From: Amoebophrya sp. A120
Taxonomy: Eukaryota; Protista; Dinoflagellata
Length of the DNA stretch: 64,000 nucleotides
NCBI GenBank assembly: GCA_905178155.1
Contig: CAJINV010000001.1
Coordinates: forward strand, 12,759,136 to 12,823,135
Reading direction: 5' to 3'
The position numbers and the translations under genes are program-made. This document shows, piece by piece, positions 3,406 through 40,514 of this stretch; the first letter of the stretch is position 1; each line of letters begins with the position of its first letter. Below the pieces are notes generated by a model. It was not told the origin of the DNA and made no database searches. It saw nothing but the letters and a program-made list of their open reading frames with translations.

Positions 3406-4208
3406 AACAGAGCGCTAGTTGCAGAGTGGAATCTTACCAAAACCTCACACAAAAATTCATGTTTGGTCAAAAGTATAGCAATCACGTGCAGAAGCTGATT
3501 ATTTTCATATTAACGTCCTTCCAAGTCCTGATATCTACAACCAGCATCGACAAAACGGAACATACGGGGAACGATTTGGAAGAGCTGTGACAGGCTGCAA
3601 ATGCCCTCGCTCTGTTCCCTCCTTTTTTTCCGAGCACAACAGCTGCGTCCTTCCCGAGACTCTCCACATCGCTCTTGAACCAAAGCAGCGGTGTCCTCGA
3701 CAATGGCGACATCCGAAGTCAAACACTTCACTCAAAGAGAAAGATAGACTTTAGCACGTCCTGCGAACCACTTCTGCGAGAGCGACCATCTGGGCTTCAT
3801 CACGCGTCCACCCACTGACATTTTTCTTGTAGAAGCTTTCGTTGTTCGACATTGACGAATTAGTTCACGATGGGGCCATCCAAGGAAATTTGCGACTTAC
3901 AGGCTGCGATTCAACATTGGATTTTGAGTTCATCGATGGGACATTGTTATCTCATTGATTTACGAATCCGGTTCATTTTGCTCAGGTCAGAGCACGAAGT
4001 GAAGGATACAAAGTGAAAATGAGACATCATCATCATAGTCATAGCAAATTGATGGTCATTAATAAGTAGTCGTGAGCTAGAGTAAGCTTTGACTACCTTT
4101 CTTTTGTCTGTAGGTACGTGTTGTTTGTGGTTTCTTGAATTCTCGGACTGGTAGGTAGGGTATTGCAAAACACTTCCGCGTCTTCATCTCCTTGGCTCGC
4201 TTCTCTTC

Positions 4209-11203: not shown

Positions 11204-12019
11204 TTGTCGTTCGAAAAAAATAGCGAAGTTGTAGCTGTAACTGTAAGGATTTTAGGTTCTAGCTGGCAGTACGTGTCGCAGTTCTTCCTCTCCTTGTGAC
11301 CTCAAGAGGCAGAAGAAGCGGAGGGCAGAAAAAAAGTTCAAACTCTTATGACTGATTTCAGACTCGGTCTTTCAATGTCGGTACTTGTACTCGAGTAGAA
11401 ACACAGCTCACAAAAAAAAAAACTTCGTCGATTTGGTGGAGCGCATCATACTCACTGTAAATTTCTAAGTCTTGATGACAGGTTGACTGTGGTCATTGTA
11501 TTCGTACGAAAAGAACATCGTCACTTCTTTACAAATGAAATCAGTCACTTCCTTCTCGCTGTGTGTCAATCATCTTGAGAAACATGCACTAAGAAAAGGC
11601 TGCTTAGAATGTCAACATGACGTGGCGCCGGAAGTTGAACATAATCATAAGGAAGCGGATGATCATGATCTTCATCTTTTTGAACTCGCTGCATCTATCT
11701 TGGATCGTTCGATCTTTCGACTAGTACCTTCATCTTTTTTCACTCATTGCCATGCGTACCTGCTGTTGATGTTGGCTTCTCCGTTTCAAAAAATGACGCG
11801 CGACTTCGAGCGCAAGTGTTGTTTCCAGAATCTGATTCTATATATGTGAAGTGATTCTTCTATCACTATCACTATCAAAAAAAGAAGAGACGAAACGAAG
11901 GGGGGGATCTTTCGGTTGAGCGGTTGAGAAGCTTCCTTCTTCTATTCCCATCACACATTTTATCTCAACATGTCTATCTGGCAGCGCGCTCTTCTCAACA
12001 TGACGTTCTGCATTTTCGT

Positions 12020-20343: not shown

Positions 20344-21970
20344 TATAGAGATGAAATAGGTGATCTTCAGCGCTGTTCTTATCCCTAAAGAAATTCGCAG
20401 CATACCGTCGGGATTTGCCCTTTTTTTTTGCGCCAACGCAGGCGCTGCAGTTTTTATGGTCGCGCCTGCGTAGGAGTGCTGTTGCCTCCCCTGGTGGGTT
20501 TTTGCACGCGGCCCAGGCGTCGCTCTAGAGGAACCAACAGGCACGCCAACACCCCGACGAGCCTAGACATAGACTAAAGTGGCCCCCCCACTGCGCAGAT
20601 CGACGCGACCCACGGACACTCACAACACGCCCAACAGGCGCAGGCGGGCATCTTTTTCGCGGCCCCGGGCCCTGCGTACTCGCGACCCAAAAAGGGCCGC
20701 AAGCCGGCTCGTGCGGGCTTGGTACGCAGGCCCCTCGAGACCCCTTGGAACTCTTCAAACGAGCCTCATTCTCTCACCCACCGCCCCAATCACTGACCGC
20801 TGGCACCGCTTCCGCGGTGATGGTGGACGCACTGGCAGAAGACCCTGAAAGCTTCCCGCCGGGTGCTCGAATAAACATTTCGGGAAGATAGATAAGAACA
20901 CCTACTGCAACGACCTGGAGTTGATGTTTTGGCATGCAGCAGAGTTGGATTTTCTGCGCCGAATGTCCCCGCTCGCGAAAACTGCTGTTCTTATCCTCCA
21001 CGCCGTGCATAGATAAGAACATGTTTGTAACGACCTGAAACTGGTGTTTGGCACGAAGCAGCATTGGAGCTTCTGCGCCAAATGTTCCCGTTCTGGAAAA
21101 ATGCTGTTCTTATCCTCCACACCGTGCACAGATAAGAACACGTTTGTAACGACCTGAAAATGGTGTTCTTATCTATGCACGGAAAGGAGGGATAAGAACA
21201 GCACTTTTCGAGAACGGGAACATCTGGAGGAGAAGCTCCAACTCTGATTCGTCCAATCATCCTGCTTCGCCTTCAGTTCAGGTCGTTACAAACATGCTCT
21301 TATCTATGCACGGCGTGGAGGATAAGAACAGCAGAAAACGAGAACGGGAACACTCGCAGTGAAGCGCCGCCTTTGCTTCATCCCAAAACGCCGCAGCAGG
21401 TCTCTGCAGTAGTGTTGTTATCTATGCACGAGCGGGAGCGTGCGGAAGCGGAGCTGAGGCGCCATCTTTGCTTCGTGGTCCCATATGCATATTATTTTAT
21501 AGAGCCAGCGTCCCACCGGTCCTAATTTAGGACCGACGGCACGGCGCAGGCACCAAAGACAACACCGGAGGGGTCACCATCTGCTGCCTGACACAAAGAG
21601 AGACGGATGGGCGCGCACACTGCCACGGCCCGGCGCGACCGCCGGCGTTGCCCCAGCTTGGGGGGGCTGTTTGGGTGGCGCATCAGCGCGCGCCTAGGCG
21701 CGCGAACTTGGATGTAGTGGCCGGCGGTTATTCTGTCAGTGTGCAGCGCTTTCCGGGCGCATGAGCTGGGGCTGCGCTAAGCACGAAAGCGCGACCCTCT
21801 GGAGGATGCGCGGCGAAGGCTTTGGGTAGCCCTGGGCGGCGGCGCTTTTGTTGGCCTCAGGCACGCCAGGCCTCGCCTAGAATGAAAAAAAGCACACGAA
21901 TCGCGACGGTATGGCGCGATTTTTCTTAGGGATAAGAACACACGGGAAGATCACCTTTTTCATCTCTATA
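20344..21970. mobile_element. Non-autonomous TIR DNA element, 1627 bp, TAT...ATA termini, perfect 5-bp target-site duplication (TSD) GGTGG
   Basis: Left end tatagagatgaaataggtgatcttc..tgttcttatccctaa..cataccgtcg matches the reverse complement of the right end over about 75 bp. ggtgg flanks at 20339-20343 and 21971-21975. No convincing ORF. Confidence 0.92.
20870..21440. repeat. Head-to-head fold-back array of ~120-bp units carrying TGTTCTTATC-N16/17-GATAAGAACA palindromes
   Basis: Units start at 20891, 21012 and 21131 (partial), then repeat inverted from about 21164 to 21430. The centre of symmetry is near 21155. Confidence 0.9.
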
Positions 21971-23146
21971 GGTGGCCCTTTTTTTTTCAACAATGACTGC
22001 GATCTCCGCCCGAGATCGTGTACCTTTTTCTTCGCCGTCCCTTTCCGACTCATACGGAAGAGGCAACGAAACTAGACTTGACTAGCCGGGAAGGGGGTCG
22101 GTGTGTTAGAGGGGAGATCGCAATTCCTGACGTACTAAGAGCCTATGCTGTCTTGATGAGTCGAAGTTCGGCATCAGGAGTTGCAACGCCACATAGTGCA
22201 GCCCGCTACTATTTTTTCTCCGACTATGTCTATCTCTATGAATTCCTTTTGCTTGTATTAGATACATACTTAGATTCTTGGCCACCATCGGTTCAGCGGA
22301 GTGAGGTAACCTTCACACCATGTTTCTGCAAGTACAGAACGCATAGATTTTTCAACGACTTGCATACATAAAAATTTCCTTTATATCAAAGCGGAGCTCC
22401 TTCTCGGGGGCTTACTTCAAATCCTGTTCTTACATCCTGATATTCAGTTGCTTTGGCGAATCCTATCGAAACTGAAGGTGTACAGGAAGAGAACAACGGA
22501 GTGTAGTGTTTGTAGTATGAGACACCAAAATCCGAAACTCACCAGAGCGATCATTGGTGGGTTTCGGAATAATTTGGAATTTATTGAGCAGCAAAACAGA
22601 CGAAATACATAAAGTATTAGCACGTATCAAAACCTGGTTTAGAAATTCGTCCTCCCAAGTTTGATGATAATAAGGATATCAAAAATGTTCAAATTTCATG
22701 TCCTGTAGATACGATACAACTTGGACGTTGACGCCCTATGCATCAAGCTTGGCTGACTTCTGTGCGCTACTCTTTATATTCTAGTAGAATATGGATAGAA
22801 AACGGGTGGCTGGAGGTCCAAAATACTCATCAGCACTACTGTATAATGGACATCCAAGTAGCAAGCTGGCGGGCTGAAAGTGAAAGCAATTCGTTGCGCA
22901 CAACGCTAGCATTGGGGATGTTGAGACAATGCCAAGAAGTACGTGAGCCATCATCGATGGTTTTTCGCGGAGCGAAACGAGGTTTCCCGTCGCGCCACAT
23001 TAGCTAAATTCCGGTGGCAGTGATCGGGACTGCGCCATGTGTGCGCGTCTGGTTGCAGCTCAATACGGCGCAGCTTCGAGGAATGTTGCGGAAGAGTGTA
23101 TCGCATGGGTTCCAGTGGAGTTCTCTGGTGCGGCCGCCGCACTGTC

Positions 23147-26100
23147 CTACAAAAGCTGACCTTGATGATGGTGCGAAGAGTTGTTTGCTGGATGCTCCAT
23201 GTTCATTGGCCAATGGCTTTGTGTTTGCTGAATGCCGCCCTCGGCAATAAGCTGCATCAGTGCACCAGTAGAGGGCGTTAAAGTGTTGATACCCTGGTGT
23301 GGCAACACAGTCGCTGCCTGCTGGTTGTAGCCACTAGTACCGGGCACGATGTTCCCAGAAACACCCCCAAATAACGCTGCTTCCATCGGGTTCGGGAGGA
23401 GCTCGGAATACGCGCTCGCCGTAGCAGCGAAATGATGATCGTAAGAAGCAGTAGAAGTTCCGCCCTTCCCGTCTCGGGGATGAAGAGGAGGCGGTGGAGC
23501 AGCGCCTGCCGCAGGCCGCATCATCTCAAGCCCCCAAACGTTGAGTTGGGAATAGAGCGGATCGTCAGGAACTTTATTTGCGGAGACAGGGGGCTGCGCC
23601 GGGATGTTCAAGTGCTGGTAGCTGCTGGCGTCGGTTTTTGTCCTCTGCGTTGGTACAACACCGTGGCTGTGCCAGGCACCATCGTCCTGCGCTCCTTCCA
23701 ACGCCGATGGCACGGCCCGAATGCTGCCCGGCGGTGCAGGTACGGCTGGTGCACTTGCGGTACGCAATCCATAGTAGCTGTCGAGAGCCAACGAATGCGG
23801 GCGATGCATGCTTTGCGCCACCTCGAACATGGAAAAAGCAGGATGGTCAGCCGGCTTTATTTCACTCGGGGCGTAACCACTACGTTCGTTCATCTGTTGA
23901 AGGTACGAAGCTGTGGCTGCCACGCCACCATCCGTCGCTCCTTTTCTTGCTGCTGCGGGGGCAGACGTGCTGCTACGAGGTTCTATGGCTGGCGCTAACG
24001 CGTACGGCGCCGGAGCGCCCGTGTTGTACTCCTGCGAGCTAGAGACCTGGCTTCTACTGTAGTACGCGGCATCGAACCCGTTCAAGTCTTGAACATGCTG
24101 CTGGTAGCCCCACAACTGGCCTTGAGGGTTGCTGTTGTGAAACTTGGCACCCTTAGAATGTTTCCGGGCCGCAATATCCATCAGGTTGTAGGCACCTTTG
24201 TGCATTTTCCCATTTTGCGTACCACCTCCTCCTGCGAGATACTTGCCCTTGGCCTTGGATGCAAAAGCTTTGCCCCGTTGCAACGAGGAGCACTGGTGCT
24301 CGCCGCCGCGCAGATGATGTTGATTGATGTGCGATTCTTGCTGGTGCCACGATGCGGTGTAGAAATCGTTGTGCGCGGCGTTATGGGCATTGTTCTTCGC
24401 GAAAGTATTACCTTTGTTCATCTTGCCATTCTGAAGATTTTTCTGATGCGGAGCGTAGGCGCTACTGTTTTTGCCGTGGCCTTTCCCCGATTTCCAGTGC
24501 TCTAGCGGCCCTTGCTGCGCCTGCATCGACGTCGTGGCATGATTTCTTTCCCGGCCTGACACTGCCGTAGCTAGTGCTTCGCTACTATCCTGCCCTTCGA
24601 CGACGGCAGGAGGTGGAGGCGTTGGGACGCGGGGGTTGGTCGGATCTGTCGCACCATCAAGCCGTGCAGCAGCAGCAGCAGTTTTCACGGCAGGACCGTC
24701 CCCTCGCTCGTCCTCTCGTTGCGCCCCCTCCGTTGTTGACCCCACGACATGAAGCGCGGCGTCCGCACTCCCTCCTGTGTGGCTGCAGAGGGAGCTTATC
24801 GTGCTACTGTCGTCTATGTCTTCTTGCTCCAACGCCGGGGCTGCAGGCAAGGCTGGACCACCGGAACCATCTCTGCGGCAGCCGGCAGCTGCGGAGGAGC
24901 TGGCGTCGACAAAGGAATTATCGGAGTCAACATTTTTCATCGCGGACAGCGAGTTCCTTCCAATAGTCGTGCTGCCACGAGAAAAGCTCGGTGGGAAAAG
25001 GTTCTGGTACAAGTGCGGGACAACGGGTAACTGGAAGGTATCAGACGGACGCGGCCCAATTCGCGAAGTCTTCGTCGCAGATGATGAAGATCGAGCCCCG
25101 CCGGCAGGGGAGCTGGAAGGCGTTCGTGGGTCGGAGTCGACAGCGTAGTTCCTGCCTCCCGTGTTCTTACCGTCTGCAACAGGAGTTGTGCTGGCCACTT
25201 CATCCTGAGTCCGATCTGCTGCTGGAGATGTTGGAGATCCTTCGGCTAGATGAACGCCAGCGCTGAATTCATGATCCTGCACCACAACGCCGCCCTCGGC
25301 ACGAGCAGCACTGGCCGCCACAAGTGGTCCAGAGCAGGCCGGCCCGCCGAACAGGGGCCACAACTTATCGCGCATCTGCAGAGCCGCGGTGCACTCCTCA
25401 GGGAGAGGCTCGACCTCCGCGACCACCACTTTCCGCGCGAGAGACTCAAGGACTTTGTGACCTGCACAGTGCGTAGCGATGAAGTGCGTGGCTCATAAAT
25501 TGTTTTTCGTTTGTATTTGTTTTCACTTCAGTTGCCCTTGCCCGAAACGGGAGCTTGGGTTGTTCAAGGCGGTTTCTTTTTTCATATTTGTTCCAGTTCC
25601 AAAGCAAAAAACGAGGGGAAATGTTCATCGTAAAGCTGCAACACAAAAGATTCTTTCTTCTACCCATAGCCCACTTGCGGTCGAGGAAATCCTGCAGGGC
25701 GCTGTTGTAGGTGTTCAAGGAGTCGTGTATGTTCAGGAAATCGACCGGCACGAGGTCGTGGTAGGCGACGTATCCCTTGTGCACATTTGAGCGGTAGCTG
25801 AGGGACCCGAACTGTTTGGTGCGTTGCTTCAGCAGCTTGCGAAAACCCGCCACGTTGATCTCGAGGTAGTCCGTGAGCAGGTTCACCGCAGTGGTCAAAC
25901 TACCCGCCTCCGCGACGGTCTGGCCCAGTAGCATATCGTGCTCCCGCTTTTCGTCCGCGCCGCATTTGTCGCTCTCTGCAGCTACACAGTCGATCTGGTA
26001 TGTTCGTTTAGTTGTTCTTTTATAGCAACAGAAGTCAACAGAAGTGCTCGGTCGTTTTGAAGCAATTTTTGCAAGAAGCGGCACGACCCGCTTGTTTTGA

Positions 26101-27148
26101 GATTCAGTGCGATTTCTCCCTCGTGTCGTTGACGAGCTGGCGCTTTCAATGCTTTTACTAAAATTGGAAACACCGATACTGATCACATCTAAATTTGCAC
26201 CATTTTGTCAATGTCGTCCCTTTTGCAGTTGAACTTCTCCGCCAAATCCACCATCTTTTCTTCCGTCGGTGTATGCAAGGAAACAAGACAAAAGAAACGC
26301 TTTTTGCTGCCGTGCTGTCACTTGCGTCGATAACGCGTGTGTATTTTGTCTACGTCTAGGTTTTTTCACACCGACACCAGTCTTTTCGATTAAGGTCGTC
26401 CAGGTCGATGCGCAATTCTTTTTACAGATTATATATACAACATCTACCTTTACATCTCCGAGGGAAGCGCGAGGACCGAGGTGCTCACACGTCGCATACA
26501 AAAGCGCTGGTCTTTTCATCATTTTCTTACAGTACGAACCCGATTTGCGTGCCGCTGTGCTGGAGGTGGGCCATCCGTGTGGCGAAGAGGTGCAGCCGTT
26601 GGTGCACGTACTCACACAACTTAACAACATCGGACTCGACCATCTGAAAGAAGAAATCATCCTGGCTCTGCACCAAGTCCCGGCGGCCACGCTTGACCTG
26701 CTGCACCATGCGCTCTATCGACGTCTTCAGAAATTTGTGGTTCACATACGGCTGCGTATCGTGGCAAAATATTAAAGGAGTAGTGCCAGAAGACTGTTGC
26801 AAAGCGGAAACTTTTTGTTTCGGACTCGGAGGTCGAGGCGAAGGTAGAGTTCTGTTTTTTGCAATTCTCGAAGCAGGCATGCAACAAAATGATCGAATAC
26901 TATTCTCAGACTTGACTCCAAAAACGTTCTCATTTCATCTTCGGCCACTGTTATTTGGCGACGAGCCACATCGGCTGGCACTGCCGTCTATGCCTAGTCT
27001 CGACGATGAAAATATGAGCAGATTGGCAACCAGAAATTTTATTTGTCCTGATTGTGGCTTGACACTGAGACTGACCCGACGTTATTTTGCGGTGATACGC
27101 TTCCGGATTCCGATTCCGGTGTAGGGCCAACTTCTTCCCATATCGCAT
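23147..27148 (-). CDS. SPX-domain protein with long disordered C-terminal tail, about 5 exons
   Basis: MRYGKKL (SPX start), PYVNHKFLK, FFFQMVESDVVKL, LLTDYLEINVAGFRKLLKQRTK (SPX lysine-cluster region). Spliced in frame by GT-AG to the 23147-25429 ORF. Confidence 0.85.
26757..27097. mobile_element. Degenerate TAT...ATA introner forming SPX intron 1
   Basis: Ends tatcgtggcaaaata and rc tatcaccgcaaaata (12/15), with a gacccgac remnant of the family TIR. Removing element+5 nt gives in-frame ...NPEA-PYVNHK. Confidence 0.7.
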
Positions 27149-28710
27149 TTTTGTGTAAGTATCTTCTTCTTCTTCTAATATACGTTGTCCAGGGCCCAGA
27201 AAGCAATACTACTGGATCGCATGATTCTTGTTTGCTTTCACTTTGCTTAAAGCTTATGCTTGTTTTCGCTTGAGCTTCTAATCATATGATCCGAGGGCGT
27301 TTTTCATAAACTCATAAAAAATGATGGGACGACCTCTTTCTGCTGGTAACGGCCGTACGTAGGTAAGTCTAAGGAAGTGGCTTCAAGCCACTTCTACTAC
27401 CATCAGCAAAAACAGAAAGTTTTCCTAGTTGTACGTAGCGTTACTACTTGTTTGTAAATCTTTAATAAGCACCTCATCCGTATCTCGCAAAATGAATGTG
27501 ACACTCTATCCAAAAAAAATTTTGTTTCTTTTTTCATATTCCGTAGTTATACGTAGACGACCGAAGTGTCGTGATCATCGAGGACGGAGCCAGCACTACT
27601 TCTTAATTAAAGGTTCTGGACAAAATGCTGCAGATAAAAGTGCGGCTCATCGCTCTGTGTCTGTAGTTATACTCAAAATGTTTCATCTGTAGGTAGGATT
27701 GAGAAAGAAAATGACAATCACGACGAAAATTTTAGGCTGGCGTAATTATGTATTTGCAAGGCTGCGTTTGTTGCGTGCATAGCAGAAAAGCCCCACGACA
27801 ACATTATGCCACGGAGATGCTTTGACAAAAGCAAAAGGCGCAGGGCCGAGAGTACTTGGTGTTCGAGAGTGTCTACATCTCTTTTTACATAAAAGCAAGC
27901 TAGCATGGCGACCAAGAAGGATCACGCAAAATCTGGGACCGGGAATACAGATAAAAGCGTTCTTCCACTTCTCAACGTCGAATACTTACTAACTTACCTG
28001 GTTGCGTGGACTCACATGAGATCAGACATGTTCGGTTTTCTCGGATCATCTCGAAAATCAATGCTATTGTTCGTCTTACGGGAAGGGGAACACCAACACA
28101 GTCACGCGTCACGGATTTTTTTCAGGAAACATCGCAAGTATCATCAGCACGCACTGCTGCGACCTCGGGGGACTGCTCTCTTTTTGTCTTTTTTGCCATA
28201 CAAACTTAAATCGCCGCAAGCAGACAACTGCGCTTTTTTCACGCACGGAGTATTCTCCAGACAGACACGATCGTGACCACACCTTTGACTTTGTGTTTAG
28301 TTTGCGATTCTTGCAACACAGCAGTCTATTTCTTTGCTAGTCAGAATCGCTCTCGAGTACTACTAACTTAATACAGCAAAATTGCAAATCAAGACAAGCA
28401 AGAACAAGCGGCAAAAAAAGTTCAGGATCTACTTCGATTCTTTCTCGGTTGCGACGAAGAAGATGACTGCAGCGAGCAAGAATCTGTCAATTACCCACAG
28501 GCGTTCGGACGTTCGGTGTCGTGCATCTCGGTGAGCCAACCCTTAACTTTCAGCAACAGGCGCTCCTTATGCTTGTCCACTTTCGATTCTTCGACACCCT
28601 GGCACCAAAGGGGCAGCAATCGACGAAGCAGGGCCCTCCTGTACCTGGGTTCGAGTTTGTTTCTACTTTTTTTCGAATGACATTACGTGTGGCAAGGACA
28701 TCGTTGTGTT

Positions 28711-31700
28711 TCAAAGCAAGGCTCTGTGAAAATATGTCTCTTTCTCTATCATGCTGAAGATGTAGATGCCCGAAAATGAGGACAGATCGCAGTAGTACTG
28801 CTCCTGTGCCCTGCCGCAGCGAACGTGAAAGCTGTGCCGCGCAAAAAGCCGGAGGCGCTGCAGAAACACGCGGAGAAGCTGCGCGTGGTACAATTTTTCT
28901 CCTTCCGCTTTGCTCTGCCGATAGAACTCAGCAAAGCCCTGCAGGCCGAGTTTGCACCTCTTCTTCCTCTGAAACCGCATCGCCTTCTGATGCAGCGCGT
29001 GTTCGGCGGCCAGTCGGGAGGTTCGCTGCGTCTTGCTGGTCTGGTGCCACAGCTCCAACACAGCAGCCAGCATGGTCTCCGTGTGGTAGCGGGCCGCAAT
29101 CTCCAGTGTTTCCACAGCTTGCTGGCGAGAGCGGTGCAGTGCGTCCAGAACTTTTCGCTTGAGACGGTAGTCGCGGTACTGTCTCGCCTCGACCGCCTGT
29201 TGCCGCCGTTTTTCTTGCATCTCCTGCACCTGCTGCTTCTGCGCCTCCTCTTTTTTTTTCCTTTCCTTGGCGTCGCGAACGCGCTGCCGTTTCTCCTCCA
29301 CCTCGCGCTCCGCCGCCAACCGCTCGCGCTCTTGCGAAAGCTCCCGTTTGCGGGCCTCCGCCTCCCGCCGCCGCTCGTCCAACTCCGCGTGCCGGGCCTT
29401 CCGCTCCGCGGCGCGCTGCTCCATTTGCAGGACGAGCTTTGACTTCTTCGGTGGCGCGAGTTGGGATTTCGTAGTTCCCGGACCGCTTTGGCTATGGCTT
29501 TGCTCAGCCTCATCTTGCTCGGCAGGTTCGTCGTTCTCATCTGTGGATCTCGGGCGGCGGGTATCATGGCGATTTTCGGCTCGCGTTCGGTTCGTTCCAG
29601 GAGTCGTGCCCATTTCCTGCATGACTACTGTAGATGAAACTCCCGCATCTCTGTTTCCGGTACTCGAAGAGGCAAATTCTGACGGAGATGTAGTTGTGCG
29701 GGGCGGAAAACCCCTGACTCTGCTGGTCGAAGAGGAAGACGTTGCACCGGCACGACTACGTGACGGATAGCGCACTGCATAGGGATTATTTATGTTTTTA
29801 CCAGATCCAGTCCCTCCTGCATCACCACAGGAAATAAGCGAGTCAAGGTCTTCCTCGTCTGCGTCTCTGTCTATCGTAACACGACTTGTGCCGTCGTGGT
29901 TTGCAGAAGCGGATACTGCTCCACCACTTCCTGCTCGGAGCTCCAAGAAGCGCTTGGTTTTCTGCTTGAGCGTTTCTAACGCCCTCAGGTGTCCGGCCTC
30001 GCGCGTGAAAAGCGTCCACGCCTGAAACGCCCGGCGCCACTTCTTAGTGGCCGCGAACTCGCGCGCGCGGGCTTCGTTTGCTTTCTCGCGGGCAAGGGCG
30101 CGAAACCACTGCTCTTCGGCGCGCTCCGCGAGCACGAGCTTGACGTACTGGTTCCAGCTTGCCCAAAGCGCTCGCTGCAATTGGAGTCCGACTTTGCGCT
30201 GCAGACGCCGCAGTTTATGCGTCACCTCTGTGTGGCGCTGCCGCCACGTCTGCCATGCGCCCTCACGGTTGCGTTTCGAAATCAGCTGAAGAGCAAACTG
30301 GACCTGGTTTCGGGTTTTAGTTGTCAAGCGAGAAATCTTGATCACGACTTCTGTACAGACCTTGCATCTTTTGTAGTGGGCACAACACACAGTTCTGCAG
30401 ATTTCAGTCTTATTTCATTTTACTCAACAGATCTAGAACGAGCAAGTGAACAGTTCGAGTAGCATGCTCAACATAGTACCGAGGAAACGATTCGCTTGCA
30501 TCCCAGGTCTTTTCGTTTTTGTTTTTCCTGTTGCTCTTTTGCGGCCTGCTTATTTTCCTCGAGTCGTTTCCTTTCGCGGACCCGAGCGGTTTCCTCCTCT
30601 ACTTCCGCTTTCTGGACGGCAAGCCGCGTCTCTTTTTCCCGAGCACAAAGAAGAGACTTGTACCTGTTTTGAGGTATGCAACAACGTCAGTCGAGGGGCG
30701 ATCGGCAGTACAGGCCAAATTACAGGGCAGCAGAAGCAAAGGCAAACACAACTAAACTGATAGAAACCTACACAATTTCTTACTTGCATGGATCTTGATA
30801 CGTACTACAAACTTGGTTCGGTTAGTCGCGCCCACGTGGACGTGCCGACGAAAAAATGCAATACGCGTTGGTTTCTTTCTTCAGCTCCGCTCTGGCGTTG
30901 CGCAGTTCGGTCTCCTGGTGAGCCACGCTGTCTTGCAGACTGGCCACGCTGCTGCCCTCCGGCTGAAAGATGCTTGATAGCCGACTGTCGTCGATAGTGC
31001 TGCAGCAGCTCGTGCCAGGCTCCACATAATCTGCCACACTACCGGTTGTGGGCGACGCGCAAAGCTTGTCGCCCGGCTTGTTCCCCACCGAGGACCTTGG
31101 ACTGGCGTCGGCTGCACATGACGTGCTTGTCATCGTGGGAGAGGAGGCTGCGCCGATTTTCGCAAACGCATTTGGTCCCGCAGGAAAAGAAGCTCTAGTA
31201 CTCGGTCCACCTGCTTTCGTACTGCCAGTGCAGCTGCTGGTGCTTGGTGTTGGCGGACGCCGCGTCGTGCGCCACAGAGGCAAAGAGCTTGAGGACGACG
31301 AGGTTCTTGACCCCCGACTACCCTGGCCGACCACCGGGTGTCCCTCAACATCACGATGCTCATCTTGACCGAACGAACTTCCTGTTGCCGCGAGGGACGC
31401 GCGCGAAGCTGCAACAGCTTCCTGCCGTCGCTGTTCCCGTTTTTCCGCGATGAGACGATGCCTTTCCTCCATCACAGCGCGGGGGTCCAGCTGCCGCTCC
31501 TCGTCTTCCATTTTATCTACGGCGGTCGGGAGCGCCTGCGAGCAAGCCTTGCTGCCGGGTCTCGATGTTGTTGAACCGTGATGGTCATTACCCCGTCCAT
31601 GTTTCTTCCCTGTAGTTGTAGGACAAGAAGGTTGCTCGCGTTGCGCCCGGCGCTCCTCCTGGACTCGCGAAATGGCTCCCATAGCGACCGCCAGATCTTC

Positions 31701-32682
31701 CTCAAACGAGGGGTCCAAACTCTTGCTCTCGTTCCGCAATACGGTATGAAGCACTTTATCTGTAGTTCGATTGTAAAAAGCATACTAGCGAGGCGGTCTT
31801 TCCGATGTCGAGTACTGCTCTAGTCTCTGCCGTGAGGACTCCTTCATCTTTTGCACCTCCACTGCAAAACAAATTCCGAGCCTCTGGCCCGGATAGCGAT
31901 ACGATAGGACACGGACAGATTTTCATTAACATCAAGGCAAATTGTGCTTCGGATTTGCAGGCACGCACATGAGCAAAACTTATAATACCGGTCAAAAGAG
32001 GCGGCGGCCGCGCACCTCCTGTTCGCGTAGGAGCGAATCCGCTTGTAGTTTGGCTCGGCATGCGGACAGGACCACGAGGCGGCCTTTGGGCAGCATCAGA
32101 GGTGCTAGTTGAAGAGGATGTTGCGCACTGTTCTCGGCCAACAAGATCGGGGATTCGGCGGGGCGGAAAGCTGCTGGATGTCGAAGTACAATCTAAATTT
32201 GGAACCTGCCGCGAAGTAGGGGCGTAGACCACGTCTTCGGAGTTCATTAGATCGATGGTGTCGACAACAACGTCTTCTGTGCCCCCGCCCGTAAGGTCGT
32301 GAACAGGGCCACGACCACCTCCCGAAGATGCTGTAGCGCTGCCACTGGCTAGCCACGATCGTTTGTTTTTGTTGGTCGTATGCGTTTTTGATGTTTCCCG
32401 AGACGGAAGCCGCACCGCCCCCGTTGGCCACTCAGTCTTCGCACCGACCTTGCGAGAGATGCTGGCCGCCTCCTCTTCGCACTGTAGCCAGTGCGACAAA
32501 AGTCGACGGGCTTCTTCGCGACAGGACGGCTCCTCCGCCGGTTTTTGGGCGCTGGTAGATTCACCTGCTCCAGTTTCTTGTGCCGTCGCCATTTCGACGT
32601 CGCCTGTGAAGGTGCTGTCGGGAAGCTCGGGCGGGTTTCGACCTCCGGCACCTGTCTCAAACATTCTGAAGGGCGTGTCCAT
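28711..32682 (-). CDS. CCDC191/Sfi1-like coiled-coil protein, multi-exon
   Basis: EARRLLSHWL, DPRAVMEERHRLIAEKRE, Trp-spaced repeats (RALWASW, RRAFQAW, AVLELWH) and LVLQMEQRAAERKAR. Exon limits and 3' end are approximate. Confidence 0.65.
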
Positions 32683-33589
32683 GTCAACGCGCTAGCAAGA
32701 AGATAGATATGAACCAATCCAGAAAACTTCCCAATAACAGAATCACTGTAGGGATTTCTCTCTGTATCTGTTAGATTCGATTACCCTCGAGAGAAATGAA
32801 ACAAGCACAAAAATGAAACTGTTCAGCAGGTCTGTACAGGTGTCAAGACACAAAGCTGCTTTACAGTAGCAACATCTCCTTCTCGTTGAGGGGAAAAATA
32901 CTGGAGCAGGCTAATTTGTTGCAGATTTTGATTTGCACACAGAGTCTCTCAGCATTCACACACCCCTTGTTCCATCTCTCCGAAGCCGCAACAGAAGTCC
33001 GGCGCAACAAAGCGGAAAACACGTATTGCTCTCGCGATCACAACACTCTATTTGCATTTTGTTCGTGCGTTCGTATCAAATAAAGCTAAGCAGAGGTGCC
33101 CAGCACCACGCACGACAACAGCCCTGCGTGCTTGAAGTAGAAGTCAGTCCTCCAAACGCGGTTCGACGTTAACAAAGAAATGTTGGACGCTGCTGGCATA
33201 GACACTGTTCTTGTCGAAATACGTCCAGCGATCATGGCTCGTGCGCGAAAGCCGCCAGACGCGGGACAGAGATTCAAATTCAGGTCTGCTTTCAAAGTAC
33301 ATTCATTACTTTCTTGTTGTGCTTCGTAGGTATTTTGACATTGAGTTGAGTTGCTGAAACGAAACAAAAGTTGTGAAAAGTAAGTTCATTGAAACAAAAA
33401 ACGTATTGGTTCTTTCGGTGCTCGTTCTTTGGCGATAGGTGTGAGTGTGTCCTTATCTACGTGTCCGCAGAATGTCGGAAAAAACCTAGACCGCATATGG
33501 GTCTAATTACAGTTGGAAGACAGCTTCGGTAGGCATTTATTCTCACTCGAGACCGTCACGGTCTGGAAGTGGTGCAGGTGCATTTTCTT

Positions 33590-35363
33590 TCATTGTTTCT
33601 TCGTCTGTTCCCGATCGGTGGCCTGGTTTGCTTGCAGCATGACGGCTGCGACTGAGGTCATGATGAGAAACAGGGATGAGGCGCTTATCAACCCCCAGGT
33701 TGCGGCGACCTGTGCAAATGCGTACTTTCGCACTAAACTTGTGGCGCAGGGTCCCAATTTCGACGACGCGAGCAAGGTGCTGCCGTACGTCAACCACAAG
33801 AAGGACCCGATACTGGCGGCTGTTTCCACCGCAAAAGCGTGACGAAAGTTGGCGGCACGCTGGCGGTTGAAGACAAAGTCCTCTGTGGTCACAGTCCTTC
33901 TCTTCGAAGCCTCGTATGGCAGTACCCCCGGCTGAGAAGTTGAAAGTTCCGCAAATTTTTCCCCTGCGTTTTGCTGCTCGTCAAGCAGCACCCACTGAGA
34001 AAAAGACGCTGCATTTCTGCTCGAAGTATTTGCTGTGGTCTGCTTCTTGGTACGACAACCTTCGAGACGCCACGAAATCGGAATGGCAGTTTGGTCGTGA
34101 CCTCGGTGGTCAACGTCGTCACTATGTCCCGCGTTCGCGGACGCTGGCGATCCGCTGCGGCGCCCGACGCACAGAAAATAGCGGTCAAACGGCAAGGGCC
34201 GGTCAAACGCGATTTCGTGCGTGCGACCCCGATCGCGCACGGCGGATGCGATTACGCGGTCACTATGCGTCCACCCGTGGGAATCGCGGAGAAAAAACTC
34301 GAAGTGGACCTGCAGAAGTTGTTCATATTAGCGCAATAAACGACAGGGGGATCATTACTCCATGTAACGAACCGAGAACGGTTCGTTTCTTTATTGATCA
34401 CGCACAGGCACCACGCATCACTCAGGAGCCTACGTCATTCTCTGTTCAGAATCATCTCTTTTTCATCTTTTGCATTTTCTCTCTTGAATTTAAGTAACAG
34501 CAACACAAGGAAGATGAATAGCAGAGCAGCAGCCTACGCATAGTGTATACTTTCTTGGAAGTATCGCCGCCCGCAACTCCGGTGATGCGAAGACGGAACC
34601 GCGTATAGCTCCACCCAGAGCGGCGGCTTCCTCCCGCGGGCGGGAGAAAATAATCCATTGGCGAGCCGGTCGCCACTTTTGCGACGATGTAGGAGACCGG
34701 GAAGCCACACAAAACGCTGCCGGCCAGCCAGGTTCGCAGCGCAGCGTCACAGGGGCGGGGAGCCGTCGTGCCAAGCAGTGCCAAACTCGCCGCATCGACC
34801 ACACCAAGACCAAACAACACAGTAGGCAGCCAGTCGCGCATTGTCGTTCGAGGTCTGTTCGATGGCGCGCCGTCGTTGTCGTCCTCGACTTCCTCATCAT
34901 CTTCCACTTCATTCTGGCTGCCTGTCGTCGCCCGAAGAAACGGAGGGGCTCGGTAGGCGTTGGTCAGTGCTAGGACCGACACGGAATTAGAGGTCCCTGT
35001 TGTTCCGGAGGTCGGAGAAAGACCACCGACGCCGGATAGCTTGATTCGCAGCTCTGCGTGTGGTTCTTCTCTACTGATGGTGTAATCTCTTTTGCAGCTG
35101 TTGAAATAATCACCGTGAGTGACATAGTGGCTGCTCTTGTCGTGTGCATTTCTGCTCGTGAAAAGGAAGCTGCTTGCAGCCCTGTTCTTGCCGGGCGCGG
35201 CTGGAACCTGCTCCGGGTTCACGCCGTAGAGAAAATCCAGCCACTCGGAATGGCGGTGGGCAAAAACCATTTTTCCTTTTTCTAATTCTATACCTTTTTC
35301 ATTACTTTGATCACATTCACATTCAGAGCTCCATAATTCAAACCGTACTGTTTTTTCCGGCAC
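33590..35363 (-). CDS. Multi-pass membrane protein with a discoidin/galactose-binding-like insert
   Basis: ORFs 34452-35363 and 33590-34240 join in frame through a GT-AG intron (SKK|VHFEFF). TM segments around PCDAALRTWL; PISWRLEG...WVLLDEQ motif. The 5' end is uncertain. Confidence 0.6.
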
Positions 35364-36360
35364 ACGACAGTTACAGTCATGATGTTATCCTTCTCACGAT
35401 AACTTCAACTCTCTCTCACTCTGACGCTGAAGTTCGATTTCCCCTTGCGTGTAAACAAGCAAACACGGCGAAATTATTCGGGCTTGCGTAAAGGAGCGAC
35501 GTACTAGGAAAACCTCTCAGCATACGACGAGTCGCGCCGGCGCCTTCTCTCCGGAAAAAACATAAGGGAAAAGTAAACTTTCATGGCCACGGAAACCAAT
35601 ACAGGGATGCGACAATCAGAGCTGCAATGCCCCTGATGTCAGTGAAATTTGCGTATCTATTTCCACTTACGTTAGCGTCGGTCTTCATGATATGATTATC
35701 CAGCTGGTATAAGAGGTTTGTCGCGATCTCGGTCATTTTACAAAGGTTTTTACATCATACACAATCGGGATAAAAATTATACTGACGGAAACATACTCGG
35801 ACTCAAGATGCGTAAAGTACTTGTACAATATGGAGAGACGAAGGAAAGGTGCTTCAAAGTTTGCGATGGTGGCGGCACAGAAACCCTGGAGACTTGTGAT
35901 GAAACCAGACAGCGCTGCTGGAAAATTCGGAATATTTGAGAAACAACCTCTTCTTCTTCTGCCCACATCATAAAGCCGTTTTTCTTTTTTCATAAACTTC
36001 TGTACAGTAGCATTAGGATTTGGGGACGCAAGGTTTTATTTGGTATACAATTTTCCTGCTCGTTGTCGTTCATTCGAGCCACCTTTTTGTGAAAGGTCTA
36101 TAGTGTCATATAAAGAGAGAGAGACTGCTTTTTTTGGAAACGTGAAATTTTTGCCAACATGATCATCAAGGATAAGGTTAAATGTTAACTTCAGGCTGCA
36201 AATTAAAATTTCCTTAGGTTCAGCATCATCACACACGACGACGAGTCCTTCCTTATAACTAGGGCACGGACGAGAACTTGTCATCCGCGCTCTCTTTGTG
36301 GTGCCTTCGCCGCGTATCTCTTCCCGTTCGCGTTCGAACTTCTGCCAACTACACGTCGAC

Positions 36361-39300
36361 TTACTTTCTCGGAACGGGTCCGAGGAAGTCCTTTGTCAGA
36401 ACAGCGTGGCAGGCGTCGACTTCCTGCTGCTTACGGCTCGAGTTCCACCCGAGCTCTTCACCCATGATGTCAACCACACGGCCCACCGCTAAATGCGCGG
36501 CGTTGGAATTCACAAAGGCCAGCCTGTTTTAGTTTTTTCCTCGTGACGAGTCAATCTATCACAATAGTGGATAAATCGTAAGTATCATGATTGATGAAAA
36601 CCAAAACTCTGTTGTCATACTGACAAATTCAAAATCTGACGGAGACGGTGGGCGTGCGGTGAATGATTTTCTCTCCGATACAAAATTAAGATACTCTTCG
36701 ACGATAGAAAAGGAGAAGCAACAAGCGAACCCACGACAGAAGGACGTACGTTCGAAATGTTCGCTCACTTCTTCTTTGTCGAGTAGGGTGGGATTCGAGG
36801 AGCGAGGGACTTCACTTCGACAAATGCAAAATGAAATGTCCTGGTACGTAGCTGCGAGGCAAGCTGTCGACAAATGCAATAAATGAATACCTGGTTCTTC
36901 GTGCGAGAATGTCGGCAGCGGTGCATGCGTGTTCGGTTTGGACGGCGTAGCGCACCTCGCACTCGAGGAAGGGACAGTTCGGGCTGCTCGTCAGGAGGGG
37001 ATAGGAAGCGTAGTTTCCGTCTTCCGTCTTCCCGATCTTTGCTTTCTCGAGCGCCAGCACGTCCGCGGCCCGCGTTCCGTACGTGTTAACCTGAGAGACC
37101 GTAGAGCTATGATACATTCATCCGTCAATGCGGCGGAGCTGTCCCAAAAAAAAAAATCAACGCGCTAGTAAAGCTAACTCCGTCTGCTCTGATCATTTAT
37201 TTTTGATGCACGATAGAAAACACCGACCAACAATGAGGCGTAACAAGTTCGTGCGTACTAAGACCAGATCTTCTCTCTTAGTACAACGACAAAAATCGCC
37301 AAAAGCACTACCACTAGTACAACAGCTGAAGAAGTAAAAGAGCTGTTGTGTTGTAACCAGAAAAACCAATTCGAACCAGATGGGCAGCTTGGTCCGGTGG
37401 CAGGCGGAATTGGCGAGCGAGCGCCGCGTATCCACTACAAATATGTCTGGGTCTGGAACCATGCAGGCGGTTGTCACGTTAAACAGAAGTTGTGTCAACC
37501 AGACACAGACTTAGCGTCACCGACTTGCAGTTTCCCAGACCCAGACACATAATTTGCAATGCATATCGCGGAGAGCGTGGGCGTCCACCCCTGCGGAGCG
37601 AAATCCCCGTTTCGTCCGGCACCGAGCAGGGGCGTGTCCAGGGTGACGCAAGGGCCGGCCTTGGCCTGGAGCGCCTCGTCGGAGCGGAGCAACACCTTGT
37701 CCAAGGCGTCCTCCGCCATCTCGCGCCAGGTCGTCCACTTCCCGCCACTCACGAAGGTCACGTCGTTCTGCGCGTTATAGCTAACAGTGTGGTCCCGGGA
37801 CGCGTTGGTGGTGCTGGTGTCGTATGCATGGCAAAAGCATTGCGTCGCACGTAGTCGTGATTGCATCACAAACCACATTTATCTATCACAAGAAGAATGA
37901 AATTGAAATTGGTCATGCATTTTTAGGTGATAGATAAGGCGGCTCTGTCATGCAGTATTGCAATCACTGCGAGTGCAACACTTTTGCAATTCATAAGTCG
38001 TTCGGGTCCTTGGCGAGCGGCCGGGTCCCGTACCACGCGGACAAGACGTCCTCGCGCCGGGGATGCATGCTCGGCGCCAGGTACTTGCAGCTCTCTTTCA
38101 GCTATGCACTGCAAATATTATTCTGGGTCTCAGAGGACGGAGCGTGTCATGCGAAGTGGTCCCGATCGATGTGTTGCATGCATTCTCATGCGGCGTAGGC
38201 AGCACGAGTTTGAAGGCCTCGCAAAGTCTGTGATGCGTCTGGGTGCATTTTTCCAGACAGCCATGTGTGATCATGTGGTCGGCGACTCGCACGACAAGGC
38301 TTGCATTCTTCCAGACCCAAACATATTTTCCCTGGATATCAACAAGTATTCCACGTCGTCCTCGGGGACTGCTGGGTGCAGCTCCGGGTTCGACGTCTTC
38401 ACGTCGGTTGTACCGACGAGCGTGTGGCCCTGCCACGGGAGGTAGAACATGAAGCTGCCCCGGGAGGTCTGCATGTCGCACATGCCGAGGTCCCGCGGAC
38501 AGAAGTTCTCGGGGAGCACGATGTGTGTGCCGCCCGCGCCGGTCACGCAGGGCTGGAACTTCTTCGCCTCCTCGGGCGTCAGGCCCTCGGACAACTTGCG
38601 CACGTCGTCCGTAAACGGCCCGGCACAGTAAATAATCTTTTTAGCGCGGATCTGCACTTTCTTACCGCTCAACGCGTCCCGGCAGACGGCACCGCGCGCG
38701 TGGCCGTTCTTGTCGAAGACGATCTTCTCTACGACTGTGTAGTTCGTGACCGCGGCGCCCTTCAGCATGGCGGTGCACGCAATCGCGAGGTTCGTGCGGG
38801 CGTCGTTGTGTGCCCCCTCGTAAAAGACGCTGGTTTTTATGAGGGATGAATAACTTCACATTTCTTGACAAACAGAAAACACGCGCGACACAAGTGAGCG
38901 TACAATGCGTCTCTATCGTGTTGTAAAAAATGTTGTCAATAACAATAGTCAGAAACAGTTCAGCTGTGTGGCTATTTTGTTCCAAAGACATTGCTCCAAC
39001 TACTTACGTCGGTGAGGTGTTCTTCTAACTATCGCTCCACAGGGAGATACTAAATCACGAACCGAAAAGCAAAAGTCTATTGAAGTAAAGGATCTCATCG
39101 TTACTTTGCGTATTTGAGTCTCGGTGCGTCCATTTGCGGGAAAGCCTCCTGCAGCTTTCGCGGGAAGATCGTGTAGCTGCTGGGAGCGGCGAAATACCCG
39201 AGCGCGTCGTAGCCCTTGAAGAAGAAGCTGTAGAGCCCGCAGGCCGGCCCGATCGCCGCGGGCGGGTAGCCGAAGGGGGGCGGCCAGATGACCCAGTGCT

Positions 39301-40514
39301 TGATCGGTACGGCAACCGGGACCCAATAGGTCAGGTGGCTGTTCAGCTGCAGCATGTAGGAGCGCTCGCGGAAGTATGAAATGCAAATGTGTCTGGGTCT
39401 GGAAGATTCTAAACTTGTAATGCTGTCTCTGGATCCTAAAAAAATTTTTGTTGCATGACCAGCAAGAGAACTCCAGTTCGTGCTACGCGGAGCGGGCGTT
39501 TCTCATGCGGTAGAGGCATCACAAAGTCCTCTGAAAATCTGTGATGCTAGGGCATGCATCACAGATATCATGGGTCATTCAAAATATGCATGACAAGCCT
39601 GGCAATCTTTCAGACCCAGACATTTTTGCATTTGATAGGAAGCAGCCCAGCACCATGTTGAAGGTCGACGTGAATTCCGACACTGCGTCCGCCGGCGCCA
39701 AAAGACTCCCGGGCTGGAAGAGGGACACCAGCGCCTTGACCAGGTACCGGGATCCGGCCCAGAGGAGCTTCGTGCTCTTGGAACTCGTTCCGCTGGCGAA
39801 ATCCTCTTGTTCGACACAGGCGGTCGTCAAGCCACGGGTGGTGGCGTCGAGCGCCAGTCCCGCACCGGTGGCACCCCCGCCGACTACCAAAACATCAAAC
39901 TCCTCCGCGTCCAGCCGCGCCAGCATCTGCATAGAGGAAAACGGCAATAAATACGTCCTTGTTGTAGGCCAGCATCATCATAAGTAGGAAATGCATACGA
40001 AAACAGCAATTCAAGAATGAAAGCTACGTACCGCAAGTAAAGCTACACCCAAACGAGTAATCCTTGTCAATACCTCGTCCCGGGACGGAATTCGCTCCTC
40101 GATTACGGTTTTTCGCAGCTCCGCTGATTTCGCCAGCGCCTCTTCATTCTTGTACTTGCAATACAGCACGCCCGCTCCGACGCCGGCACCGATTCCAAAA
40201 ACTCCTTTCATGAACCGCGATCCGCGTGGGCGTTGCGTCGCTTGCACCGCAGCGGCTTCCGAGCTAAAAGCACGGAAGGAGCCTGCATTATTTGCGCCGG
40301 CTGGGAAGAAACGTGGATTTGTTATTGCGTTTGGTTCATACGCACCACAGAAATCAAGGACTGCACCGCTGCGCCCATGCCTACACTGGTCCCACTGACG
40401 TAACAATGGCTGATTTCGCACTCTTATGCTTGACAATCTTGTAGCACCACGTACAGCGACGGACCCACCTTGTCTTCCGGAAATGCTGTGTCGAAAAAAG
40501 ACCACTCGCGCCAT
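36361..40514 (-). CDS. GPD2: Mitochondrial-type FAD-dependent glycerol-3-phosphate dehydrogenase (GPD2/GlpD family), 9 exons
   Basis: FDVLVVGGGATGAG, DFASGTSSKSTKL, EGAHNDARTN, GTHIVLP, FYLPWQGHTLVGTTD, VLSAWYGTRPL, SRDH, GGKWTTWREMAED, HLVNTYGTRA, DILARRTRLAF. Exons about 40074-40514, 39643-39926, 39105-39374, 38342-38829, 38002-38100, 37571-37823, 37377-37428, 36891-37090, 36361-36523. The R-rich N-terminus looks like a presequence. Confidence 0.95.
37429..37565. mobile_element. TIR introner (137 nt) forming a non-canonical intron in G3PDH
   Basis: Ends tatccactacaaatatgtctgggtctgg and rc tatgcattgcaaattatgtgtctgggtctgg; flanks ccgcg/tcgcg. Removal gives TLSA-ALARQF; no GT-AG register restores the frame at this junction. 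Confidence 0.9.
37823..37995. mobile_element. TIR introner (173 nt) forming a non-canonical intron in G3PDH
   Basis: Ends tatgcatggcaaaagcattgc and rc tatgaattgcaaaagtgttgc (17/21); flanks tgtcg/agtcg. Removal gives KDPND-TSTTNASRDH. Confidence 0.9.
38103..38338. mobile_element. TIR introner (236 nt) forming a non-canonical intron in G3PDH
   Basis: Ends tatgcactgcaaatattattctgggtct and rc tatccagggaaaatatgtttgggtct; flanks tcagc/tcaac. Removal gives DDVEYL-LKESCKYL. Confidence 0.9.
39375..39637. mobile_element. TIR introner (263 nt) with perfect 5-bp TSD GGAAG, forming a non-canonical intron in G3PDH
   Basis: Ends tatgaaatgcaaatgtgtctgggtctggaagatt and rc tatcaaatgcaaaaatgtctgggtctgaaagatt (30/34); ggaag at 39370-39374 and 39638-39642. 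Removal gives VLGCF-RERSYM. Confidence 0.95.

What the first reader, a model, noticed from the sequence alone, without database searches (positions are those of the whole stretch)
37429..39642. Four related TAT...ATA TIR introners act as non-GT-AG introns in one conserved housekeeping gene
Seen: 4 of the 8 G3PDH introns start TAT and end ATA, with 20-45 nt imperfect TIRs (consensus about TATSCAYTGCAAA, followed by TCTGGGTCTGGAA in three of them). Each sits between 5-bp direct repeats: GGAAG/GGAAG, TCAGC/TCAAC, TGTCG/AGTCG, CCGCG/TCGCG. Removing element plus one repeat copy restores conserved GlpD motifs exactly, and no register gives an in-frame GT-AG. The other 4 introns are ordinary GT-AG. 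Known: non-canonical introners with inverted and direct repeats are reported in Amoebophrya. Inference: these are DNA-transposon insertions whose TIR stem defines the splice sites, so structure-guided excision coexists with spliceosomal splicing in one transcript. The fixed TAT/ATA plus 5-nt geometry is a precise, testable rule.
Basis: partly seen in the sequence, partly recalled or inferred. Interest (0 to 1): 0.9.

Follow-up and report, generated by a model that had tools for sequence, protein, structure and literature searches.

The report
Hairpin transposon introns of parasite Amoebophrya
Four small transposon-like inserts in a metabolic gene of the marine parasite Amoebophrya are removed exactly from its transcript without normal splice signals; this intron class is already published for this strain, but the data here suggest a likely fixed cut position that had been left open.

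Summary
Real, spliced, and already known. The gene (minus strand, FAD glycerol-3-phosphate dehydrogenase) matches an annotated Amoebophrya sp. A120 protein (100% over the 162-aa exon searched; 9 exons). Contigs of probable RNA runs (one sample) skip exactly 142, 178, 241 and 268 nt; the DNA run does not. All 8 ends fit TAT-N7-AAA, the A120 introner motif of Farhat 2021, who also report short direct repeats and genes mixing both intron types. Correction: TAT...ATA bounds the element, not the intron. Repeat mismatches here plus two more introns in a neighbouring gene leave one shared register: cut 1 nt before TAT and 4 nt after ATA. That puts U at +2 as in GT donors; one intron passes over an AG 1 nt away. 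Support is thin (6 introns; chance 0.05-0.16). In 145 paired elements from one metagenome assembly the repeat is 5 bp; elements lie in both orientations, with no GT/AG enrichment. Likely mechanism: a modified spliceosome positioned by the terminal stem; untested. The scan noted similar introns on other DNA.

The parts
36361..40514 (-). Coding span of the FAD-dependent glycerol-3-phosphate dehydrogenase (GlpD/GPD2-type) gene, 9 exons, 749 aa
   Evidence: P0001, named Amoebophrya sp. A120 by its source, 100% identical over the exon searched; exon map; PF01266 + PF16901
39375..39637 (.). Element E1 (263 nt), repeats GGAAG at 39370-39374 and 39638-39642; excised 268 nt; intron 39638-39371 in the inferred register (CT...CC-type ambiguity: registers 0-5 all allowed)
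   Evidence: fold z -7.0
38103..38338 (.). Element E2 (236 nt), repeats TCAGC 38098-38102 / TCAAC 38339-38343; excised 241 nt; registers 2-5 allowed; inferred intron 38339-38099
37823..37995 (.). Element E3 (173 nt), repeats TGTCG 37818-37822 / AGTCG 37996-38000; excised 178 nt; registers up to 4 allowed; inferred intron 37996-37819
37429..37565 (.). Element E4 (137 nt), repeats CCGCG 37424-37428 / TCGCG 37566-37570; excised 142 nt; registers 0-4 allowed; inferred intron 37566-37425
   Evidence: fold z -9.2
39927..40073 (-). GT-AG intron, 147 nt
   Evidence: joint in X3/X4, ends
38830..39104 (-). GT-AG intron, 275 nt
37091..37376 (-). GT-AG intron, 286 nt
36524..36890 (-). GT-AG intron, 367 nt
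   Evidence: annotation map, loose end of the X3/X4 contigs at 36890, ends
26757..27097 (.). S1: TAT-N7-AAA element (341 nt) in a neighbouring gene, repeat decayed (1 of 5); excised 346 nt = element + 5; registers 4-5 only; a 347-nt GT...AG option is not the form seen
26272..26529 (.). S2: probable degenerate member (5' end TAA, 3' end ...GCATA; repeat 3 of 5); excised 263 nt = element + 5; registers 4-5 only
   Evidence: end duplex -17.3 kcal/mol but whole-intron fold z -1.1, so membership is uncertain

Best explanation
These are Amoebophrya A120 introner elements: short inverted-repeat inserts flanked by 5-bp direct repeats, likely non-autonomous DNA transposons, that are removed from the transcript together with one repeat's worth of sequence, likely at a fixed position by a modified spliceosome positioned by the terminal stem. 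Shown: excision of element + 5 nt in 6 of 6 introns tested. Inferred: insertion duplicates 5 bp (n1-n5); the cut falls after n4 in both copies, so the intron reads n5-TAT...ATA-n1n2n3n4 and the message keeps one intact copy. The 5' end then reads N-U-A-U, matching positions +2 to +4 of this organism's ordinary donors, and the 3' end would be measured 4 nt beyond the stem instead of found by AG. Because both ends carry the same inverted repeat, an insertion in either orientation and at any site would be spliced without changing the protein, which would explain the family's spread.
For: RNA-type contigs give joints of 142, 178, 241, 268 nt and 346, 263 nt; DNA run X1 shows none of them and matches the window without differences over 22800-36300. 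Allowed registers: E4 0-4, E3 -1 to 4, E2 2-5, E1 0-5, S1 4-5, S2 4-5; only 4 is shared. Register 4 is the one that places T at +2 and A at +3; 9 of 11 GT-AG donors checked begin GTA and 5 of 11 GTAT. All nine 'predominant' A120 non-canonical motifs in Farhat Table S4 have T at +2. S1 is joined 1 nt off an available GT...AG pair. End duplexes -17 to -34 kcal/mol in the 6 elements against -4.5 to -13.5 in 11 GT-AG introns. 5-bp repeat exact in 92 of 145 paired elements and at least 4 of 5 in 118; lengths 3, 4 and 6-10 exact in 0-2 of 145. Elements lie both ways relative to the inferred coding strand (23 same, 23 opposite, 10 unclear at margin 8). Farhat et al. found 83 of 89 spliceosomal proteins but no U1 snRNA (passages).
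Against: Only 6 introns place the cut. If each were cut at a random register, some common register would remain with probability 0.16 and register 4 with 0.05. The four elements of the finding alone allow 2, 3 or 4; the lower bound of 4 comes from two old elements that both begin GT in that register and may have drifted to an ordinary donor; S2 is a doubtful member. No enrichment of G at n5 (25 of 110) or AG at n3n4 (11 of 110) among family copies, so no sign of selection towards spliceosomal signals. The stem would hide the U at +2 and any branch point near the end. The Table S4 motifs depend on an aligner that favours canonical-like ends, and CT-AC is GT-AG on the other strand. Farhat Fig. 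3 legend calls the sites variable relative to the hairpin. All RNA-type contigs are from one sample, their RNA nature is a guess by the tool, they may not be independent of the annotation, and contigs drop minor or decayed isoforms. No lariat or circle data were seen.
Confidence: 0.5

Rival explanations
1. Same fixed geometry, but cut and joined by a non-spliceosomal structure-specific nuclease and ligase that recognise the terminal stem, as has been suggested for euglenid nonconventional introns (released as circles).
For: Strong terminal stems; no G or AG preference at the ends; both orientations occur; U1 snRNA not found in A120; the review PMC11282704 section 6 describes circular excision products in euglenids.
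Against: The shared register coincides with the one that mimics a GTA donor. Spacing differs from Euglena (1 and 4 nt here; N3 and N5-6 around a CDG/CHG pair there, abstract of PMC12501133). S2 is spliced in the same register with an unremarkable overall fold. No candidate enzyme was identified.
Confidence: 0.25
2. The cut position varies within the direct repeat from intron to intron or molecule to molecule; only the 5-nt difference is fixed, and the shared register 4 is a coincidence of six cases.
For: Chance of a common register 0.16. Farhat Fig. 3 and S23 legends give variable positions of 1-5 nt. Automated calls in Gozashti 2025 Dataset S2 differ among A120 families (22 of 58 rows seen). 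About half of repeat mismatches are synonymous (20 of 39), a little above what free drift of one copy would give.
Against: None of 6 introns requires a register other than 4; the contigs show one form per intron; published variability can arise from alignment ambiguity inside the repeat.
Confidence: 0.22
3. The elements are not introns: the gene is a pseudogene, or the joined contigs come from an element-free allele or strain in DNA.
For: The tool only guesses that X3-X6 are RNA; raw-read run X9 did not cover the exons.
Against: The same contigs also lack the GT-AG introns, have no letter differences in the listed exon pieces of this gene, and the DNA run holds the unspliced form; the joined frame gives a full-length 749-aa protein like its orthologues.
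Confidence: 0.03

Closest known systems
Introner elements (IEs) among the non-canonical introns of Amoebophrya sp. A120 (Farhat et al. 2021, PMC7789003; read: sections 11, 12, 16, passages, supplement part 3 and figure legends; figures not held)
   Same: Same strain label on the identical protein; TAT + 7 nt + AAA inverted-repeat motif (8 of 8 ends); direct repeats of 3-5 nt with a 5-bp example; RNA-supported non-GT-AG introns of about 240 nt; genes with both intron types; MITE-like origin proposed.
   Different: The paper leaves the border position unknown or variable and gives repeats of 3-5 nt. Here the repeat is strictly 5 bp abutting TAT/ATA, and one register (1 nt before TAT, 4 nt after ATA) fits all six introns tested.
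A120 TIR-DNA introner families in Gozashti et al. 2025 (PMC12130899; read: passages, 22 of 58 A120 rows of supplement file 8; files 13-14 not searched)
   Same: Non-autonomous TIR elements of about 150-300 nt, superfamily unknown, with largely non-canonical ends; for example fam12 (331 copies, 252-260 bp).
   Different: Their automated TSD (2-5 bp or none) and splice-site origin calls disagree among families. I did not assign the window's elements to a numbered family.
Nonconventional introns of euglenids (PMC12501133, abstract, introduction and one passage; review PMC11282704 section 6)
   Same: Terminal base pairing, slidable direct repeats, coexistence with GT-AG introns, fixed spacers between stem and cut.
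   Different: Signature N3CDG...CHG-N5-6 followed by an exon purine; unrelated lineage; circles reported there, not tested here.
Non-canonical TIR/TSD introns of Fritillaria borealis (seen only through review PMC11282704 section 6)
   Same: Transposon-derived introns with TIR and TSD removed precisely; spliceosome adapted to non-canonical ends.
   Different: Preferred AG-AC/AG-AT ends; here the terminal dinucleotides are whatever the target site supplies, apart from T at +2.

Membership tests
Amoebophrya A120 introner elements | Intron supported by RNA with ends other than GT-AG | tested here: met
   4 of 4 joints in X3/X4, no GT-AG in any allowed register
Amoebophrya A120 introner elements | 8-20 nt inverted repeat joining the two ends | tested here: met
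   E2 is the weakest (-17.4 kcal/mol)
Amoebophrya A120 introner elements | Inverted repeat starts TAT, 7 variable nt, at least 3 A | tested here: met
   8 of 8 ends; both ends in 124 of 145 related elements
Amoebophrya A120 introner elements | 3-5 nt direct repeat at the exon/intron borders | tested here: met
   5/5, 4/5, 4/5, 4/5
Amoebophrya A120 introner elements | Repeated in the genome | tested here: met
   thousands of X1 contigs match the ends with many different flanks; E1 has 68-74% identical full-length relatives, E3 only 2 loci
Amoebophrya A120 introner elements | Host is Amoebophrya sp. A120 | tested here: met
   two proteins 100% identical over the query, so named by their source
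Non-autonomous TIR DNA transposon (MITE) | TIRs, constant target-site duplication, no coding capacity | tested here: met
   5-bp repeat only; elements 137-263 nt
Non-autonomous TIR DNA transposon (MITE) | Cognate transposase or empty-site allele | not testable with these tools
   no genome held; Farhat found no transposase in A120; Gozashti report a TIR family with LTR-element-like ORFs
U2-type spliceosomal intron | GT/GC-AG ends | tested here: not met
   only T at +2 is shared in the inferred register
U2-type spliceosomal intron | Lariat formation at a branch point, snRNA dependence | not testable with these tools
   contigs only; no raw reads over the junctions
Euglenid nonconventional intron | 5'-N3CDG / CH'G-N5-6 | purine signature | tested here: not met
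   ends read n5-TAT and ATA-n1..n4 against the signature in the abstract of PMC12501133

The most novel reading that the evidence does not exclude
A120 introners obey one exact splicing code, N|TAT...ATA|NNNN: the 5' cut lies 1 nt before the stem and the 3' cut 4 nt after it, with no G at +1, no AG, and no dependence on orientation. A U1-less spliceosome, or a separate enzyme, measures both sites from a hairpin, which makes any insertion of the transposon a perfect intron. This would settle the border position left unknown for tens of thousands of introns and define a splicing code distinct from those of Euglena and Fritillaria.
Probability: 0.55. Interest if true: 0.65.

Novelty: already known. 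Interest (0 to 1): 0.38.

Why it matters
The elements, their motif and mixed genes are published for this strain, so the finding itself is a rediscovery. What remains open in the papers read is where these introns are cut and by what. The repeat-mismatch approach works on existing data and gives a sharp prediction (cut after the fourth repeat base, U at +2, 3' site measured from the stem). That can be tested genome-wide at once and tells where to look for lariats or circles. If it holds, it bears on how a spliceosome lacking U1 snRNA handles more than 60% non-canonical introns and on how transposons become harmless introns.

Tried and rejected
No whole genome was held, so no genome-wide scan. 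No run on record as RNA was listed as a holder; the raw-read run X9 gave 90 reads, all on one TIR end and mostly from one other locus, none on the exons, so no read-level junction evidence. In-frame GT-AG pairs within about 40 nt of each end exist but change residues and are not the joints seen. A first scan for TAT...ATA pairs with a loose threshold was not above chance (9 against 3-13); the stricter motif was. A fifth element at 52717-53941 and a candidate end at 47473 could have narrowed the register, but no matching protein was found and no read-laying run was left. DNA-only attempts to place the cut in 126 family copies with repeats of at least 3 of 5 (19 of 145 dropped as probable mis-pairings) failed: mismatches cluster at n1 (14) and n5 (11), do not favour extending the stem (4 against 6 of 25), and at n5 the upstream copy was more often the G/C base (10 of 11), which does not fit simple AT drift of an intronic base. 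The coding-strand caller was right in 4 of 5 window checks, on exons it was trained on, so orientation counts are approximate. Whether the metagenome assembly is the same strain was not determined. Literature: six searches found no paper fixing the A120 cut position or reporting lariats; subscription papers such as Roy et al. 2023 and Henriet et al. 2019 were not readable, and Farhat's Figs 3, S19-S25 and Gozashti's files 13-14 were not seen and may already show this register.
Full report
Observation. The four elements lie where stated: 37429-37565, 37823-37995, 38103-38338 and 39375-39637, each starting TAT, ending ATA, with imperfect inverted ends and flanking 5-bp repeats. Four pairs with TAT-N7-AAA at both ends and a repeat matching at 4 or more of 5 bases occur in 37300-39700; none occurred there in 300 block shuffles. 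The host gene is on the minus strand. A search with the largest exon returned a 749-aa protein, 100% identical over the 162-aa query and named Amoebophrya sp. A120 by its source, followed by dinoflagellate and other glycerol-3-phosphate dehydrogenases; it carries PF01266 and PF16901. It maps to the window as nine exons: four introns are GT-AG (147, 275, 286, 367 nt) and four coincide with the elements.

Splicing. No genome was held, but the run search listed two near-complete holders and four runs of one sample holding about half of the words. The tool marks X3-X6 as RNA by guess; loss of the GT-AG introns in the same contigs argues that they are transcripts. They are one sample and may not be independent of the annotation. 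Raw-read run X9 covered only one TIR end, so there is no read-level evidence.

What it is. Farhat et al. 2021 (PMC7789003) describe, in this strain, introner elements with 8-20 nt inverted repeats and 3-5 nt direct repeats, whose motif starts with TAT, has seven variable bases and ends in at least three A (section 11). All 8 ends here fit that. The paper also describes genes with both intron types (section 12), shows a 5-bp repeat example (Fig. S19 legend), discusses a MITE-like origin and the missing U1 snRNA, and marks the border position as unknown (Fig. 3 legend). Gozashti et al. 2025 list 58 A120 introner families; in the 22 rows I saw most are classed TIR DNA of unknown superfamily, with inconsistent automated TSD and splice-site calls. 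The finding is therefore a known class in the known genome.

Family geometry. A 30-letter end motif found 126 loci; the 80 listed all come from one metagenome assembly. Pairing ends without using any repeat criterion gave 145 elements. The flanks match exactly at 5 bp in 92 and at 4 or more of 5 in 118, while lengths 3, 4 and 6-10 match exactly in 0-2. So the duplication is 5 bp and abuts TAT/ATA. Relative to the coding strand inferred from codon use, elements of E1 type lie both ways (36 same, 35 opposite, 11 unclear at margin 4; 23, 23, 10 at margin 8). The strand caller was right in 4 of 5 window checks on training exons, so this is approximate. G at repeat position 5 (25 of 110) and AG at positions 3-4 (11 of 110) are not enriched.

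Where the cut lies. Let k be the number of bases of the gene-upstream repeat copy kept in the exon. The joints allow k = 0-4 (E4), -1 to 4 (E3), 2-5 (E2) and 0-5 (E1), so the introns do not simply run TAT to ATA, and the four together allow 2, 3 or 4. A neighbouring gene (P0121, also labelled A120) has two more such introns with decayed repeats. Contigs of X3, X5 and X6 join them at 346 and 263 nt, again element + 5, and X1 matches the window without differences. Both allow only k = 4 or 5. The one register shared by all six is k = 4: intron = n5-TAT...ATA-n1n2n3n4. In it the 5' ends read ATAT, TTAT, ATAT, CTAT, GTAT and GTAA; 9 of 11 ordinary donors checked begin GTA and 5 of 11 GTAT. The nine leading non-canonical A120 motifs of Farhat's Table S4 all have T second, although aligner preference inflates this. 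In S1 a GT...AG pair 347 nt long is available, but the 346-nt form is the one seen. Against: with independent random registers a common one would survive with probability 0.16, and register 4 with 0.05; the lower bound rests on two old elements that begin GT, one of them (S2) with a degenerate 5' repeat and an unremarkable overall fold (z -1.1); DNA-only tests on family copies did not place the cut, and the direction of mismatches at position 5 did not fit simple drift of an intronic base.

Mechanism. Shown: precise removal of element + 5 nt in six of six introns; predicted strong end pairing (-17 to -34 kcal/mol against -4.5 to -13.5 for 11 GT-AG introns, one of them computed one base off; z -7.0 and -9.2 for E1 and E4). 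Inferred: staggered insertion by an unidentified transposase makes the 5-bp repeat; the terminal stem brings the ends together and sets both cuts; a modified major spliceosome uses N-U-A-U as donor and takes the acceptor 4 nt past the stem (confidence 0.5). A nuclease/ligase route as proposed for euglenid introns (0.25) and a variable register (0.22) remain open; lariats or circles would decide. Euglena's code has different motifs and spacers, so this works like, but is not, a euglenid nonconventional intron.

Novelty. Already known as a class, motif and genome. Six paper searches found no statement of the cut register or of lariats for Amoebophrya, but figures, two supplement files and subscription papers were not seen. 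Earlier notes of this scan record similar introns on other DNA (not checked here) and none for this genome. Interest 0.38: a rediscovery, with one sharp and cheaply testable refinement of an open question.

Noticed in passing
window 52717-53941: A 1225-nt element with strong TAT-N7-AAA ends (15 of 18 complementary), repeats matching 3 of 5, an internal tandem duplication of about 116 nt and no long ORF; removal plus 5 nt would join two open frames on the minus strand. Not tested with RNA; no protein found.
   Followed up: partly
window 20344-21970: A 1627-nt element with a different TIR (TATAGAGATGAAA..., 17 of 18) and a perfect 5-bp repeat GGTGG, apparently outside coding sequence, holding nested inverted repeats at about 21006-21333. 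Suggests the same transposition geometry outside exons.
   Followed up: no
window 23150-27148 (minus strand): Gene for P0121 (994 aa): start MRYGKKL resembles an SPX-domain start (recalled; Pfam found no family). It has two non-canonical and two GT-AG introns.
   Followed up: partly
window 25995-26200: A GT-AG intron that also ends ATA + 4 nt (…CATACCAG), the same spacing as the elements; may be chance or an old element that acquired canonical ends.
   Followed up: no
window 47473 and 48566; 50411-50652; 42805: Weaker TIR-like ends: a possible decayed 1094-nt element, a TAG...CTA variant pair, and an unpaired end.
   Followed up: partly
whole window: Nearly all ORFs over 300 codons are on the minus strand, in line with the unidirectional gene clusters reported for Amoebophrya; most of the long ORFs scanned have no Pfam match.
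   Followed up: no
window 8594-11251 (minus strand): An 885-codon ORF with a weak N6/N4 DNA methylase match (PF01555, E 4e-6, just over the cut-off), unusual for a eukaryote; a JmjC match lies in 1567-3414.
   Followed up: no
table 5c (run X1): Contigs running from one element end to the next with only 26-40 letters between, pointing to very short exons between adjacent introners elsewhere in the genome.
   Followed up: no
L001-L126: The same TIR family is abundant in one public metagenome assembly, often with two or three elements within 1.2 kb; repeat mismatches concentrate at the two positions that can touch the TIR, unexplained.
   Followed up: partly
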